Origin: an uncultured Nitrososphaeria archaeon
GTDB taxonomy: Archaea > Thermoproteota > Nitrososphaeria > Geothermarchaeales > JDFR-13
Direction of reading: 5' to 3'
Assembly: GCA_964529905.1 (NCBI GenBank)
Contig: CAZGXJ010000004.1
Coordinates: forward strand, 1 to 61,943
DNA: 61,943 bases
Part shown: positions 52,425 to 61,943 of the stretch, piece by piece
Numbering within the stretch: the stretch's first letter is position 1
Layout: each line of letters starts with the position of its first letter
Made by a program: the position numbers and the translations under genes
The notes under the pieces: generated by a model
The model's database searches: none
Seen by the model: the letters and a program-made list of their open reading frames with translations, nothing else
What the model was told of the DNA's origin: nothing

Positions 52425-52496
52425 GCCCCGGTAGCTCAGCGGTAGAGCGGCGGCCTCGTAAGCCGCAGGTCGGGGGTTCAAATCCCCCCCGGGGCT
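52425..52496 (+). tRNA. tRNA-Thr(CGT), intron-less, CCA not encoded
   Basis: Acceptor GCCCCGG/CCGGGGC, D arm GCTC/GAGC, anticodon arm GCGGC-CTCGTAA-GCCGC, T arm GGGGG-TTCAAAT-CCCCC, discriminator T. Confidence 0.97.
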
Positions 52497-58982: not shown

Positions 58983-60146
58983 GTGGTAACTATGAGGATA
59001 GATGTAAAACTATATAAAGAAGTTTCAGACTTAATAAATGAGGCTAGACTCCCTTATAGGTCATTGATAGATAATCTGAATAGATATATTTCAACTAGAT
59101 ATATTGAGTTTACAAAGCTATATCACATCCTATCCCTACTTAGGAGCCTAGATAAAATCAATTATCTAAACATAGCCTCTGAAGCTGTTAAGACCGTTAT
59201 AAACAGTCAGATATCAGAAGGAGACACCGTCATCCATAAAGACGATTTCTATGGAGTTAAGGTTAAGGGAGAAGCATCTACATTTATTGAAGGGGGTTTA
59301 CCAGATCTCCTAGAGAAGGGGGAAAAGATCATTAGAGGCGAGACTCCATCAATCATATCGACATGTGCATCCCTAGAGATATTGATCGAATATTCGATAG
59401 AGACACAATACTGGGACGATGATATAGACAATACACTGAGGAATGGATATAAATATCTCCTTTTAAGGGATTTAAATAGAGATGGATTACTGGAGCAAGA
59501 TCCTAAGGAGGATTGGATATATCTACTTAGGAGGGGAGGGGCAACCTTATCATCCAACTCAATCTTCCTTAAGTTCTTGGAGGATATGTATTATCTATAT
59601 ATAGACAAGGATAGGGAATTCGGTGAGGAGATTAAGAGGAGATATCTAAGGCTATATAGGGATATAGAGGGGTATTTCTGGTTGGATGGCTTCTATGCCG
59701 ACTATATAAGTGAAGCCTTTAATATTTTCTATAGATCTACTATAGACACGTCTCTAATCGGTAGACCGATAATTTCAAGGGAGGGAGATAAGCTATATAA
59801 CCACTTTAGGAATACATTGGATAAGCTTATAGTGAATGGAGTAATCCTCGCTACTGAGGATAGGGTAAGGATATCTCCCGAATATAGACTTAGGGGATAT
59901 ATAGCCTCCACATATCACTCCACCATATATGTCTATGACATTCTCCAGAACGGATTCTTAGATCTAGCATTAAGGGCGTTAAAATACATTATTCCAAATC
60001 ATAGGTATAGCTACATAATATTCCGTGAAGATGGCATGGTTAAACGGTTAAAATCTCGGGATAGTAACCAGGAGCTACTCCTCCTATTAACATATAAGAA
60101 ATTCGAGGATATGGTTAGAGGGGGTGGGGAGCATCAGCTGGCTTGA
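58983..60146 (+). CDS. Divergent (alpha/alpha)6-barrel glycoside hydrolase-like protein (amylo-alpha-1,6-glucosidase-like)
   Basis: D.NRDGLLEQ...EDW...RRG...SN..F and FW..G.YAD pattern; C-terminus overlaps the structured element. Confidence 0.5.
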   Translation: MVTMRIDVKLYKEVSDLINEARLPYRSLIDNLNRYISTRYIEFTKLYHILSLLRSLDKINYLNIASEAVKTVINSQISEGDTVIHKDDFYGVKVKGEASTFIEGGLPDLLEKGEKIIRGETPSIISTCASLEILIEYSIETQYWDDDIDNTLRNGYKYLLLRDLNRDGLLEQDPKEDWIYLLRRGGATLSSNSIFLKFLEDMYYLYIDKDREFGEEIKRRYLRLYRDIEGYFWLDGFYADYISEAFNIFYRSTIDTSLIGRPIISREGDKLYNHFRNTLDKLIVNGVILATEDRVRISPEYRLRGYIASTYHSTIYVYDILQNGFLDLALRALKYIIPNHRYSYIIFREDGMVKRLKSRDSNQELLLLLTYKKFEDMVRGGGEHQLA

Positions 60147-60555
60147 TAGCCAGCTGTATCAGTCTCCATAGCCTCTCGGGCCCGGTGGAGATTTAGATAG
60201 TCGGGGGCTTGCCCGGTGAGATGGTGGCCAGCCATCCCCCGTGCCCCCTTCTATCTAAATCTCCAGAGGCTTATGGAGATGCTCCCTCCTTTTTTAATGG
60301 GCTCCCCCCACCACTTCAGAGGTTTCAGTTGATCTGACAGGTTTATCACCTAACCCTCCTAAGACCCTTGGGGATAGGCCCGTTTAGAGATACCCCTTGG
60401 AGACCGGGGTGTTCCCCCTAGTCTCCTTGGGGTCCATTACCCCCAAGGGTCTTGGGAGTTAGGTGATAAACCTGCCTTGGACCAACTGAAACCTCCTTAT
60501 AGGTGGGTTGGCCCAAGGCGGGAGCTTACAGCTGGCTATCAAGCCAGCTGATGCC
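60127..60555 (-). ncRNA. Unclassified ~430-nt highly structured GC-rich element (candidate large ncRNA; alternatively a non-autonomous mobile element)
   Basis: About 56% GC by hand count; 28-bp perfect terminal inverted repeats and nested perfect helices of 15, 13, 17 and 13 bp; G.U wobbles mostly favour the minus strand; TATA box at the expected distance. Confidence 0.6.
60131..60554. repeat. 28-bp perfect inverted repeats (60131-60158 / 60527-60554), each itself a hairpin
   Basis: GCATCAGCTGGCTTGATAGCCAGCTGTA and TACAGCTGGCTATCAAGCCAGCTGATGC; internal 9-bp stem CAGCTGGCT/AGCCAGCTG with a 4-nt loop. Confidence 0.95.
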
Positions 60556-60577
60556 ACTTATATGGGATTAATTAGAA

Positions 60578-60585
60578 GTTTTATA
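60578..60585 (-). promoter_or_regulatory. Candidate TATA box for the structured element
   Basis: Minus-strand TATAAAAC ending ~23 nt upstream of 60555, the edge of the terminal repeat; no clear BRE. Confidence 0.45.
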
Positions 60586-60616
60586 GATAATGTATATCTC
60601 CATAGCTTTTAGAGAG

Positions 60617-61943
60617 TCACACCCTACCCTTCTTCATAAACTGTTTATTATACATCTCCCTTAGCTCTCTAAGGGTTGCAACCTCTTCAGGTGATTTATC
60701 TTCCCTAATTCTTTTAATCCTAGCCAGTCTAAGGGCATATCCAGATTTATATTTAGGGCTTGCCTGGATCTCGTTAAAATCCACTTCAACAACTATCTGG
60801 GGTTTTACCCATACCCTATACCCCTCATCCCTAACTACGATTGATAGAAGCCTCTTAGTCATATACTGAAACTCCTCATCAGTTAAACCTTTAAAAGTCT
60901 TGCCTACAACTGTATATTCACCGTTCTCCTCGTCATATACTGCTAGGTAGTAGTCGCTTAGCCACCCTCTCCTACGTCCATGTCCCCACTCAGCTCCGAC
61001 AATGACTAGATCTAATGTCTCCTTATCCTTAACCTTTACCCAGAACCTCCCCCTACTCCCAAGTATATATGGTGAGTCGTCCCTCTTCAACATTATACCT
61101 TCATGCCCAGCATCAACAGCCTCCCTGAAGAGCTTCTCCGCCTCACTAGGAGAAGCTGAATATATCGTTTTTGATATATATTCCTTAGGAACCGTCTTCT
61201 CCAGATATTCCCTCCTACTTAAGTAATCCATGTCTATCAAGAGCTTCCCATCGATATATATCACGTCAAAGAGCTTCAAAGTTACCGGAATCCTCTCCAT
61301 ATACATCGAGATATCCTCAATCCTCCTAAACCTCTTCATCAAGTCCTGAAAGGGGAGAGGCCTTCCAGACTCCCTCTCATATGCAATAATCTCACCATCA
61401 TATATACCCTCCCTAACATCAAATTCTTTTGCTATAGATACTATCTCTGGGAAGCTAGATGTGGCCTCCGTTAGGCGGCGGCTAAATATCTTAACATCAC
61501 CATCTTTGATATGGATCTGGGCCCTAAATCCGTCATACTTATATTCCGCTGAAGCCGTGTTTACACCTAATATGTTATACCCCTCGAGGACGGAGGATGC
61601 TGGCTGTCCAAGCATCGGTCTCAAGGGTGTAAAGATCCTAGGTTTAATATCCTCAAATTTCACCCCTTCACTTATCAACTTAACCGTCTCATATAGGCTT
61701 CCTCTCAAGAGATATATTCTTCTAACATTATCCTCAGAAGTCTTCAATGCATACGCTATTGCTGATAATAAATGTCCATCTACAACACCTATTCTCATCT
61801 CCCCCATGATTATGTTCGAAAGCCAGATCCTCTCCTCATTATTTAATCTACCCATTAATGCAGCCAACATGTTAAACTTCTTCTTCTGACTATCCTTCCC
61901 CTTAGCCTCAGCAATCTTTAGAAATGTATGATAGATATCTAGG
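60617..61943 (-). CDS. lig: ATP-dependent DNA ligase (partial, N-terminus beyond right edge)
   Basis: PML, EYKYDGFRAQIH (motif I), YDGEI, FDVIY, EGIMLK, WVKVK, LR.ARI..IREDK; frame stays open to the window edge. Confidence 0.97.
   Translation of the reverse strand, partial: LDIYHTFLKIAEAKGKDSQKKKFNMLAALMGRLNNEERIWLSNIIMGEMRIGVVDGHLLSAIAYALKTSEDNVRRIYLLRGSLYETVKLISEGVKFEDIKPRIFTPLRPMLGQPASSVLEGYNILGVNTASAEYKYDGFRAQIHIKDGDVKIFSRRLTEATSSFPEIVSIAKEFDVREGIYDGEIIAYERESGRPLPFQDLMKRFRRIEDISMYMERIPVTLKLFDVIYIDGKLLIDMDYLSRREYLEKTVPKEYISKTIYSASPSEAEKLFREAVDAGHEGIMLKRDDSPYILGSRGRFWVKVKDKETLDLVIVGAEWGHGRRRGWLSDYYLAVYDEENGEYTVVGKTFKGLTDEEFQYMTKRLLSIVVRDEGYRVWVKPQIVVEVDFNEIQASPKYKSGYALRLARIKRIREDKSPEEVATLRELREMYNKQFMKKGRV

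What the first reader, a model, noticed from the sequence alone, without database searches (positions are those of the whole stretch)
60127..60555. Candidate novel ~430-nt large structured ncRNA between the GH-like gene and DNA ligase
This is a non-coding island of ~56% GC (hand count 235/420 over 60121-60540) in AT-rich DNA; GC-rich islands are an established signature of structural RNAs in AT-rich hyperthermophile genomes. Nearly all of it pairs. A 28-bp closing helix (60131-60158/60527-60554) encloses two arms separated by an A6/T6 linker. Arm A: 60163-60176/60265-60279, a perfect 15-bp helix 60186-60200/60251-60265, and a GC-rich tip. Arm B: 13 bp 60319-60331/60483-60495, 17 bp 60338-60354/60458-60474, 13 bp 60361-60373/60441-60453, and an apical ACCCC/GGGGT-GGAGAC/GTCTCC-GGGG/CCCC stack. 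Three of four wobble positions I checked are G.U on the minus strand, and a minus-strand TATAAAAC sits ~23 nt upstream of the repeat edge. I could not find RNase P (GAGGAA.GUCC / ACAGAA), SRP helix 8, tRNA, C/D box or hammerhead cores, so it matches no archaeal RNA class I recognise.
Basis: partly seen in the sequence, partly recalled or inferred. Interest (0 to 1): 0.92.

Follow-up and report, generated by a model that had tools for sequence, protein, structure and literature searches.

The report
New large structured RNA gene, Geothermarchaeales
The GC-rich island is a real, single-copy gene for a roughly 430-nucleotide, almost fully base-paired non-coding RNA on the minus strand; it has its own promoter, is conserved with many compensatory changes across a family of uncultivated heat-loving archaea, and matches no known RNA family.

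Summary

- **Fold.** Window 60119-60558 folds far better than shuffled sequence, with z -16 on the plus strand and -21 on the minus strand.
- **Not a known RNA.** It has no Rfam match. RNase P RNA and SRP RNA lie elsewhere in the same genomes.
- **Distribution.** It is single-copy. A covariance model of one arm finds it in 13 of 14 genomes (7 genera) of the family that includes 'Ca. Geothermarchaeum rappei'. A divergent syntenic copy exists in a second family of the order. Nothing was found in about 700 other Nitrososphaeria/Thermoproteota genomes.
- **Covariation.** 37 of 44 arm-A pairs show double changes. 90.8% of cells are paired, against 35-52% in slid controls. The end-closing helix P1 is perfect for 17 bp in 13 of 15 sequences, although its sequence differs between genera.
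- **Strand.** G·U pairs outnumber A·C 41 to 10, and a TATA box sits at a fixed 21-22 nt upstream of 5'-AGUGGCAU. Both put the RNA on the minus strand.
- **Invariant features.** There is a 1x5 internal loop (A / GGCAA) and a bulged GGGCCC. The apical loop always holds a 6-nt palindrome: GCCGGC, or UGGCCA in this genus.

The function is unknown. My best inference is a stable trans-acting scaffold RNA that may dimerise by loop-loop kissing.

The parts
60580..60594 (-). Promoter. The TATA box reads TCTATAAA on the minus strand (60580-60587). A conserved BRE-like ACAKYAT lies just upstream of it (60588-60594).
   Evidence: Upstream sequences of 15 homologs were anchored on GGCAU. They show an A/T-rich box at one fixed place, 21-22 nt before AGUGGCAU, and a second A/T-rich patch at about -8 to -2. 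The spacing is exactly 21 nt in all five genomes of the genus.
60119..60558 (-). The RNA gene. The 5' end is inferred at about 60558 (5'-AGUGGCAUC). The 3' end is not mapped; the last paired base is about 60130, followed by a C-rich tail.
   Evidence: The minus strand folds 10-39 kcal/mol better than the plus strand in all five genus members and in 7 of the 8 other family members. The genus consensus has 135 pairs, 49 of them with double changes.
60527..60555 (-). P1, 5' strand (RNA nt 4-32).
   Evidence: A 28-29 bp perfect helix. P1 is present in all 15 homologs (12-34 bp). Only GGCAUC/GAUGC is conserved; the rest covaries.
60130..60158 (-). P1, 3' strand (RNA nt 401-429).
   Evidence: A metagenome variant 96% identical to G003 carries a compensatory A-U to U-A swap in P1.
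60281..60525 (-). Arm B (RNA nt 34-278). It is a long, nearly unbranched hairpin whose length varies between genera. It holds a conserved internal loop, UAUAA / UGAAGU (60492-60503 with 60311-60322). Its apex (60360-60454) holds a GGGG-GAACA-CCCC hairpin, tandem AA/AA internal loops, and an unpaired GGGGUAUC..GGGCC..CCCC strand (60370-60396). The arm ends with the A-rich linker (60288-60297).
   Evidence: (10 of 32 apex pairs have double changes).
60158..60281 (-). Arm A (RNA nt 278-401), the conserved core of the family.
   Evidence: Model R1 scores 138.6 bits here and 47-66 bits in the six other genera.
60203..60248 (-). Invariant 1x5 internal loop, GGC-A-CGG (60236-60248) opposite CCG-GGCAA-GCC (60203-60216). 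It encloses the apical hairpin.
   Evidence: Identical in 11 of the 13 family sequences; G004 and G002 have lost the pair next to the loop (GGCA-GGGG, CCCCGGCAAGCC). G016 has GGC-A-CGCC / GGGCG-GGCAG-GCC.
60225..60231 (-). Apical loop CUGGCCA, which holds the palindromic hexamer UGGCCA.
   Evidence: Every family member has a 6-nt palindrome in this loop. It is GCCGGC in six genera and UGGCCA in this genus, so all three mirror pairs differ yet the palindrome is kept.
60172..60188 (-). Bulge on the 3' side of arm A, ACCGGGCCCGA, with an invariant GGGCCC (60178-60183).
   Evidence: GGGCCC is present at this place in all 13 family sequences.
58983..60146 (+). Neighbour gene, not part of the RNA. 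It is a convergent 387-aa ORF whose last 16-28 nt run into the RNA's 3' tail and P1.
   Evidence: It has no Pfam or NCBIfam hit itself. Relatives match six-hairpin glycosidase families GH116, GDE_C and MGH1-like. In G001 and G004 the stop codon lies before the RNA.
60617..61942 (-). Neighbour gene. It is an ATP-dependent DNA ligase on the same strand, and its stop codon lies 30 nt upstream of the RNA's TATA box.
   Evidence: Pfam DNA_ligase_A_M, _C and _N. The order ligase then RNA is kept in 6 of 7 genera and in G016.

Best explanation
This is an independent gene for a stable, heat-resistant, trans-acting structured non-coding RNA of a previously undescribed family. The family is a core, single-copy gene of the Geothermarchaeales lineage. 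Transcription starts from its own BRE/TATA promoter at about 60558 on the minus strand (5'-AGUGGCAU). The two ends are locked together in a long perfect helix, P1, which should protect the RNA from exonucleases and heat. Two long arms leave the P1 junction. Arm B is variable. Arm A is conserved and displays three invariant unpaired elements: the A/GGCAA internal loop, the bulged GGGCCC, and a palindromic apical hexamer. The inferred mechanism is that the invariant loop and bulge are docking sites for a protein partner or for tertiary contacts, and that the palindromic apical loop pairs with the same loop of a second molecule in a kissing-loop homodimer. The RNA would then act as a dimeric or oligomeric scaffold or particle rather than as a base-pairing regulator of its neighbours. 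Shown here: the structure, its conservation, the strand, the promoter geometry, the copy number and the phyletic range. Inferred only: transcription itself, the 3' end, the protein partner, dimerisation and the cellular role.
For: Structure is far beyond chance. The element is single-copy in its own genome. Homologs are found in 13 of 14 family genomes at E 1e-9 to 1e-34, one per genome. On arm A, 90.8% of cells are paired against 35-52% in slid controls, 37 of 44 pairs have double changes, the covariation score is 0.677 against 0.09-0.16, and 0 of 500 shuffles reach it. An ungapped comparison of P1, anchored on the ends and not fitted to any model, shows 17 of 17 pairs in 13 of 15 sequences although the sequences differ from position 5 onward. 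The genus-wide consensus has 135 pairs, 49 with double changes. For the strand, G.U outnumbers A.C 41 to 10, and the minus strand is more stable in 12 of 13 genomes. The promoter is a TATA-like box at fixed spacing in all 15 homologs. It is not a known RNA: there are no Rfam hits, RNase P and SRP RNA lie elsewhere, and ARAGORN finds no tRNA or tmRNA. The gene is independent of its neighbours, because ligase/p387 synteny is lost in G009 and G007 while the RNA and its promoter stay. The palindromic loop is kept through a complete sequence change, GCCGGC to UGGCCA. Natural large RNAs that self-assemble through such contacts are documented (ROOL, GOLLD, OLE; PMC12286853).
Against: All genomes are MAGs of uncultivated organisms. 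Only about 8 independent lineages exist, and the arm-A alignment was fitted to the model, which inflates the pairing counts. The P1 and MFE comparisons are not fitted. No clear oligo-U terminator follows P1 in this genus. The loop palindrome is absent from the one homolog outside the family, G016, and rests on only two independent states. Palindromic GC-rich hexamers are not rare in GC-rich loops. No partner protein was identified: the adjacent p387 looks like a glycosidase, not an RNA-binding protein.
Confidence: 0.72

Rival explanations
1. It is a cis-acting RNA element of a neighbour gene. It could be a structured 3' UTR or terminator/stabiliser of the DNA-ligase mRNA, or an antisense or convergent-transcription brake on the 387-aa gene whose 3' end it overlaps.
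For: It lies 30 nt after the ligase stop codon on the same strand. The order p387, then the RNA, then ligase is kept in most genera and in G016. The RNA tail overlaps the p387 stop region in G000 and G003.
Against: A conserved TATA box at fixed spacing sits between the ligase stop and the RNA. In G009 and G007 neither ligase nor p387 is adjacent, yet the RNA and its promoter are intact. The overlap with p387 is absent in G001, G004 and G002. A 350-500-nt element with invariant internal loops is far more than a terminator needs.
Confidence: 0.08
2. It is a long-hairpin precursor. The near-perfect duplex arms are cut into small RNAs, such as guides for an Argonaute-like or other nuclease, and the full-length molecule is only an intermediate.
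For: P1 and arm B have unusually long, nearly perfect duplexes of 17-34 bp. The arm sequences evolve freely as long as pairing is kept.
Against: The invariant parts are unpaired loops and bulges, not duplex sequence, which fits a folded functional particle. No target complementarity or associated nuclease gene was seen. Ends locked in P1 are typical of stable mature RNAs.
Confidence: 0.07
3. It is a very divergent member of a known RNA class that Rfam models fail to recognise, for example a second SRP-like or RNase P-like RNA, or an H/ACA- or C/D-type guide.
For: The lineage is poorly sampled, so covariance models can miss fast-evolving RNAs. My own family model barely detects the G016 homolog (21.3 bits).
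Against: Canonical RNase P RNA and SRP RNA are found elsewhere in these genomes at 61-178 bits. Ten loci searched at E thresholds of 0.5-10 (window at 10, nine homologous loci at 0.5) give no hit to any structured-RNA family. The topology of P1 plus two long arms differs from both RNase P and SRP RNA. By inspection of the sequences I saw no ACA box after the hairpins, no correctly placed C/D boxes and no K-turn geometry in the invariant loop.
Confidence: 0.05
4. It is a DNA-level palindromic element, such as a MITE/REPIN-like mobile element or a cruciform protein-binding site, and not an RNA gene. This is the reading in the other first-stage note on this stretch.
For: It has perfect 28-bp terminal inverted repeats. 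Each repeat is itself a hairpin in G000, G003 and G010.
Against: There is one copy per genome. It sits at the same syntenic place across an order. There are no hits in phage, plasmid or viral collections. The G.U excess is strand-asymmetric, and DNA hairpins would not produce that. A promoter sits at fixed spacing. Unpaired loops are conserved. The self-hairpin of the P1 strands is missing in G001 (5' arm), G006, G013, G009 and G007.
Confidence: 0.03

Closest known systems
Large 'ornate' bacterial ncRNAs of unknown function (OLE, ROOL, GOLLD; also raiA, HEARO)
   Same: It is a non-coding RNA several hundred nucleotides long with extensive covarying structure. It has invariant unpaired motifs, is restricted to particular lineages, and is found by comparative genomics without a known function. 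ROOL, GOLLD and OLE form homo-oligomers through intermolecular contacts, including kissing loops (PMC12286853). The conserved palindromic loop here suggests similar behaviour.
   Different: There is no sequence or model similarity. This RNA is archaeal, smaller than GOLLD and ROOL, and much more rod-like: two long, nearly perfect arms rather than multi-junction folds. It is chromosomal, single-copy and core to its order, not phage- or mobile-element-associated. Oligomerisation is untested.
GC-rich ncRNA genes of AT-rich hyperthermophiles (HgcA-G type, found by GC-content screens; from my own knowledge of Klein, Misulovin & Eddy 2002)
   Same: It is a GC-rich island in lower-GC DNA that marks a structural RNA gene with its own archaeal promoter.
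   Different: Those RNAs are shorter and come from Methanococcales and Thermococcales. The one that I recall being in Rfam (HgcC) does not match here.
Archaeal SRP RNA and RNase P RNA
   Same: They are stable, GC-rich RNAs of 250-450 nt. They are single-copy, and in archaeal SRP RNA the 5' and 3' ends pair in a terminal helix.
   Different: Both are present elsewhere in these genomes. The topology and conserved motifs differ, and there is no model match.
Retroviral dimerisation initiation site and phi29 pRNA (loop-loop kissing through self-complementary or matched loops; from my own knowledge)
   Same: A 6-nt palindrome is displayed in a hairpin loop. It varies between lineages but stays self-complementary (GCCGGC / UGGCCA), like the GCGCGC / GUGCAC variants of the HIV-1 DIS.
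   Different: The context is unrelated. This is an analogy of mechanism only and is untested here.

Membership tests
Archaeal RNase P RNA (RF00373 / type T RF02357) | Match to the covariance model (P4 pseudoknot core, GGAAAGUCC / ACAGAA-type conserved regions). | tested here: not met
   Rfam gives no hit at E <= 10 in 59900-60800 or at E <= 0.5 in 9 homologous loci.
Archaeal RNase P RNA (RF00373 / type T RF02357) | It is the genome's only RNase P RNA candidate. | tested here: not met
   RF00373 matches elsewhere: G000:C37 (61.6 bits, cut by the contig end), and G001, G003, G004, G007 and G008 at 132-178 bits.
Archaeal SRP RNA (RF01857) | Match to the model (helices 2-6 and 8, GNAR loops, asymmetric loop of helix 8). 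| tested here: not met
   No hit here. Canonical SRP RNA is found at G000:C1:109892-110204 (177.9 bits) and in all six other genomes tested.
MITE / REPIN-type mobile palindromic element | Multiple dispersed copies in a genome, with presence/absence polymorphism between relatives. | tested here: not met
   There is one copy per genome in 13 genomes, and it sits at a syntenic site.
MITE / REPIN-type mobile palindromic element | Terminal inverted repeats. | tested here: met
   A 28-nt perfect inverted repeat is present. However, its sequence covaries between genera like an RNA helix, and it carries G.U pairs on one strand only.
tRNA / tmRNA | Cloverleaf or tmRNA fold detected by ARAGORN or Rfam. 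| tested here: not met
   ARAGORN finds 0 genes in 59900-60800, and Rfam finds no tRNA there.
Box H/ACA or C/D guide sRNA | ACA box 3' of a hairpin with a pseudouridylation pocket and K-turn, or C (RUGAUGA) and D (CUGA) boxes near the 5' and 3' ends forming a K-turn. | tested here: not met
   This was checked by inspecting 15 sequences. No ACA follows either arm. The UGAUGC at the 3' end is simply the complement of GCAUCA in P1 and is replaced by UAAUGC in genus g2. Rfam gives no snoRNA hits below E 1.
BHB-flanked circular or permuted archaeal RNA | A bulge-helix-bulge motif (3-nt bulge, 4-bp helix, 3-nt bulge) in the helix formed by the flanks. | tested here: not met
   P1 is uninterrupted for 12-34 bp in all homologs, and no 3-4-3 motif is seen. 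Circular junction reads could not be checked.
Self-assembling ornate RNAs (ROOL / GOLLD / OLE) | Sequence or structure homology to those families. | tested here: not met
   All are in Rfam, and there is no match.
Self-assembling ornate RNAs (ROOL / GOLLD / OLE) | Homo-oligomer formation. | not testable with these tools
   Only indirect evidence exists: a self-complementary hexamer in the apical loop of arm A in all 13 family sequences, and an invariant GGGCCC bulge.

The most novel reading that the evidence does not exclude
The RNA is the first archaeal example of a naturally self-assembling RNA. The palindromic apical loop (GCCGGC / UGGCCA) and the palindromic GGGCCC bulge give each molecule two self-complementary contact points. 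Molecules would then form kissing dimers or larger closed assemblies at high temperature, an RNA-only or RNA-scaffolded particle that is a core component of Geothermarchaeales cells.
Probability: 0.2. Interest if true: 0.9.

Novelty: categorically new. Interest (0 to 1): 0.8.

Why it matters
New large structured RNA classes are rare, and almost all recent ones are bacterial. In archaea, the recognised large stable RNAs other than rRNA are essentially RNase P RNA and SRP RNA. A 350-500-nt, single-copy RNA with strong covariation that is core to a whole order of subsurface and hydrothermal archaea points to an unknown RNP or RNA machine in that lineage.

Its simple two-arm, rod-like design has three invariant unpaired motifs and a loop palindrome that is kept through a complete change of sequence. 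That makes a concrete hypothesis directly testable with in-vitro transcripts, namely dimerisation or oligomerisation like ROOL, GOLLD and OLE, even though the organisms are uncultivated. It also gives a ready-made covariance-model seed for annotating these genomes, where the locus is currently blank intergenic DNA.

Tried and rejected
- **RNase P RNA and SRP RNA.** Both are found elsewhere in these genomes.
- **Any Rfam family.** There is no match at gathering score in the window. There is none at E thresholds of 0.5-10 in the locus and nine homologous loci, apart from chance miRNA and DUF-type hairpin hits.
- **tRNA or tmRNA.** None is found.
- **MITE/REPIN or other mobile DNA.** The element is single-copy and syntenic. 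It has no phage, plasmid or viral matches; three viral pattern hits were not confirmed by the model.
- **A conserved conformational switch from self-hairpins in the P1 strands.** These are present in G000, G003 and G010 but absent in G001 (5' arm), G006, G013, G009 and G007, so they are not a family feature.
- **p387 as an RNA-binding partner.** Its relatives match six-hairpin glycosidase families. It occurs throughout the order, but not next to the RNA in G009 and G007.
- **K-turn reading of the invariant A/GGCAA loop.** The geometry does not fit: there are no tandem G.A pairs, and the loop is 1 nt opposite 5 nt.
- **Intramolecular pairing of the apical loop with the GGGCCC bulge.** It is possible in genus g1 (GGCC, 4 bp) and in G016 (UGCCC/GGGCA), but not for the GCCGGC loops, so it is not general.
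- **Wider homologs.** The family model R3 found nothing in 400 phylum genomes or in 8 chosen genomes of neighbouring families. Model R1 found nothing in 300 class genomes outside the family. There is no GC-rich island downstream of ligase in other orders. There is no P1-type helix in the p387 or ligase contigs of G005, G014 and G015, which are truncated.
- **Wasted effort.** Two genome contigs pattern scans were too loose and returned only chance hits in GC-rich bacteria. The search for homologous proteins found only one relative of p387.
Full report
**1. The observation**

The stretch 60121-60560 is a GC-rich island. GC is 0.54-0.55 there, against about 0.37-0.42 on either side. It lies between a 387-aa ORF (58983-60146, plus strand) and an ATP-dependent DNA ligase (60617-61942, minus strand).

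They include a 28-nt perfect closing repeat at 60131-60158/60527-60554 and a 17-nt perfect repeat at 60338-60354/60458-60474.

As RNA, the plus strand folds to -278.9 kcal/mol (z -15.8). The minus strand folds to -295.6 kcal/mol (z -21.0). No shuffle came close.

**2. Not a known RNA and not a repeat**

Rfam 15 finds only one tRNA (52425-52496) in the whole window at gathering score. At E <= 10 the locus gives only meaningless miRNA-type hairpin hits. ARAGORN finds nothing.

The element is single-copy in its own 719-kb assembly. It has no similarity in the phage or plasmid collections.

RNase P RNA (RF00373) and SRP RNA (RF01857) are both found elsewhere in this genome and its relatives. The element is therefore not a disguised copy of either.

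**3. Homologs and range**

BLAST-level search finds full or partial homologs only in the four other species of the same genus. All lie next to the ligase gene. The record titles place the genus in 'Candidatus Geothermarchaeota' / Nitrososphaeria MAGs from hydrothermal settings.

I built a covariance model of the conserved 3' arm (R1, from five sequences). It finds exactly one strong hit in 13 of 14 genomes of the family, covering all 7 genera (E 1e-9 to 1e-34). It finds nothing in about 290 other genomes of the class. The one family genome without a hit is only 74% complete.

One member is the closed 1.58-Mb MAG 'Ca. Geothermarchaeum rappei' JdFR-14.

A family-wide model (R3) finds nothing in 400 genomes sampled across the phylum, or in eight chosen genomes of neighbouring families.

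Synteny reaches further than the model. In G016, from a different family of the same order, the gap between the p387 homolog and ligase holds a 385-nt element on the same strand. It has a 13-bp end-closing helix and an A-rich linker. Its arm-A core reads GGC-A-CGCC.../...GGGCG-GGCAG-GCC, and its fold z-score is -7.7. In a small search R3 scores it at 21.3 bits, E 0.003.

One metagenome contig (Ga0256839_1013244) carries a copy 96% identical to G003, with a compensatory A-U to U-A exchange in P1. None of nine homologous loci matches any Rfam family.

**4. Structure is conserved by compensatory change**

- **Within the genus.** RNAalifold predicts 135 pairs over the full length, and 49 of them show double changes. 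Arm A has 16 of 44 such pairs and the arm-B apex has 10 of 32.
- **Across the family, arm A (14 rows).** 90.8% of cells form standard pairs, against 35-52% when partners are slid by 1-3 columns. 37 of 44 pairs show double changes. The covariation score is 0.677 against 0.09-0.16. No shuffle out of 500 reaches any observed measure. That alignment is fitted to the model, which favours pairing.
- **An unfitted check on P1.** I took the 17 nt after GCAU at the 5' end and the 17 nt before AUGC at the 3' end, with no gaps. They pair at 17 of 17 positions in 13 of 15 sequences, although from position 5 onward the sequences differ between genera.
- **Independent folds.** Separate MFE folds of all homologs give the same plan: P1 (12-34 bp), a long 5' arm B of variable length, a short A-rich linker or small hairpin, and the 3' arm A.

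**5. Strand and promoter**

The minus strand of the window folds better than the plus strand in all five genus members, by 10-39 kcal/mol. The equivalent strand folds better in 7 of the 8 other family members.

In the arm-A pairs, G.U/U.G occurs 41 times and A.C/C.A 10 times. A DNA palindrome, or an RNA from the other strand, would not give that asymmetry.

I anchored the upstream sequences of 15 homologs on GGCAU. Every one has an A/T-rich TATA-like box at the same place: TCTATAAA, ACAATAAAT, GTATTAAAT, ATATTAAAT and similar. The box ends 21-22 nt before AGUGGCAU. A conserved purine-rich stretch precedes it, and a second A/T-rich patch lies at about -8 to -2. Within the genus the spacing is exactly 21 nt. 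From general knowledge of archaeal promoters, this is the standard geometry: BRE-TATA centred near -26, a proximal element, and a purine start.

The RNA therefore starts at about 60558 and runs toward lower coordinates. The 3' end is not defined. P1 ends at about 60130 and is followed by a C-rich tail. Oligo-U runs follow directly in some genera (G009, G007, G012), but only 30 nt further on in this genus.

**6. Conserved unpaired features**

(a) A 1x5 internal loop, GGC-A-CGG opposite CCG-GGCAA-GCC, is identical in 11 of the 13 family sequences. G004 and G002 have lost the pair next to it. G016 has GGCAG in place of GGCAA.

(b) A 9-11-nt bulge on the 3' side of arm A always contains GGGCCC.

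(c) The apical loop of arm A always contains a 6-nt palindrome. It is GCCGGC in six genera and UGGCCA in this genus. All three mirror pairs differ between the two forms, yet self-complementarity is kept.

(d) Within the genus and in G010, the arm-B apex carries a GGGG-GARCA-CCCC hairpin, tandem AA internal loops, and an unpaired GGGGUAUC...GGGCC strand. Within the genus only, arm B also keeps the internal loop UAUAA / UGAAGU.

Invariant loops set in freely covarying helices are the signature of a folded functional RNA with specific partners.

**7. Context**

The order p387 (plus strand), then the RNA, then ligase (both minus strand) is kept in most genera and in G016. In G009 and G007 neither neighbour is adjacent, while the RNA and its promoter are intact. 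This argues for an autonomous gene.

p387 has no Pfam or NCBIfam hit itself. It has only 19 relatives among 1.84 billion representatives. Several of those match six-hairpin glycosidase families, namely GH116, GDE_C and MGH1-like.

The ORF runs 16-28 nt into the RNA gene in G000 and G003, but stops before it in G001, G004 and G002. The overlap is therefore incidental.

**8. Mechanism**

What is shown is a promoter-equipped, single-copy, order-restricted gene for a highly structured RNA. The mechanism itself is inferred.

- The terminal helix P1 seals both ends, which suits a long-lived RNA in a thermophile.
- The invariant A/GGCAA loop and the GGGCCC bulge are the most likely docking sites for a protein or for tertiary contacts.
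- The palindromic apical loop is best explained by pairing with itself in a second molecule, giving a kissing-loop dimer. With the palindromic bulge as a second contact, larger assemblies are conceivable. ROOL, GOLLD and OLE are now known to form such assemblies (PMC12286853).

I put about 0.9 on 'expressed structured ncRNA gene of a new family', about 0.3 on dimerisation, and about 0.2 on higher-order self-assembly.

**9. Rivals**

| Rival | Confidence | Main reason it is disfavoured |
|---|---|---|
| Cis-element of ligase or p387 | 0.08 | Own promoter, and synteny is broken in two genera |
| Long-hairpin precursor of small RNAs | 0.07 | Conservation sits in loops, not in duplex sequence |
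| Unrecognised member of a known class | 0.05 | No model hit; RNase P and SRP RNA are elsewhere; topology differs |
| MITE/REPIN-like DNA element (the other first-stage note, e1-5239264) | 0.03 | Contradicted by copy number, synteny, G.U asymmetry, the promoter, and loss of the self-hairpins in most genera |

**10. Limits**

Independent assemblies of 14 species and one metagenome contig carry the same architecture, so an assembly artefact is very unlikely.
- All genomes are MAGs, and there are only about 8 independent lineages.
- The 3' end, the partners and the function are unknown.
- I found no paper describing this RNA. The searchable library is incomplete.

Noticed in passing
window 58983-60146 (+): This is a 387-aa ORF with no Pfam or NCBIfam hit. 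It has only 19 relatives (E <= 0.001) among 1.84 billion protein representatives. It is restricted to this archaeal order among about 60 relatives searched. Its relatives match six-hairpin glycosidase families (GH116, GDE_C, MGH1-like), and the alignment shows invariant Q/E/D/W/R residues (consensus LLEQ..NEDW). It looks like a very divergent small (alpha/alpha)6 glycosidase.
   Followed up: partly
L158:1699-1824 (-) (G011 arm B); also G013:C54:26120-26246: In genus g2, arm B of the same RNA matches the arm-A model at 35.6 bits (E 4e-7), including a GGGCAAG motif. This hints that the two arms arose by internal duplication of one hairpin module.
   Followed up: no
3' tails of the RNA in G013/G011 (GCCGGGCCCC), G012/G008 (GCGGGCCC), G010 (GCAGGCCCC): In three genera the single-stranded tail after P1 carries GGGCC(C), which is complementary to the invariant GGGCCC bulge of arm A. 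That could form a pseudoknot. Genus g1 has a CCCC-rich tail instead.
   Followed up: no
G000:C37:3-133; G002: The RNase P RNA of the window's own genome lies at the very end of a 2.4-kb contig and is cut there (61.6 bits, model positions 61-187). No RNase P RNA hit was found in G002, which is 89% complete.
   Followed up: no
G014:C78 and G015:C118 (L294, L295): In both genomes of the neighbouring families the contig ends inside the 3' part of the ligase gene, at about residue 375. That is just before the place where the RNA gene would lie. It may be an assembly break at a long hairpin, and it prevents testing for the RNA there.
   Followed up: no
window 60135-60156 and 60529-60550: Each strand of P1 is itself a 9-bp hairpin built around CAGCUGG (a PvuII-like palindrome) in G000, G003 and G010, but not in most other genera. 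This gives a possible co-transcriptional folding intermediate, but it is not a conserved feature.
   Followed up: yes
L013:2525-2615 (-): There is a weak sub-threshold Rfam hit to DUF1874 RNA (27.9 bits against a gathering score of 42, E 0.11) on the strand opposite to arm A in G004. It is most likely a chance hairpin match.
   Followed up: no
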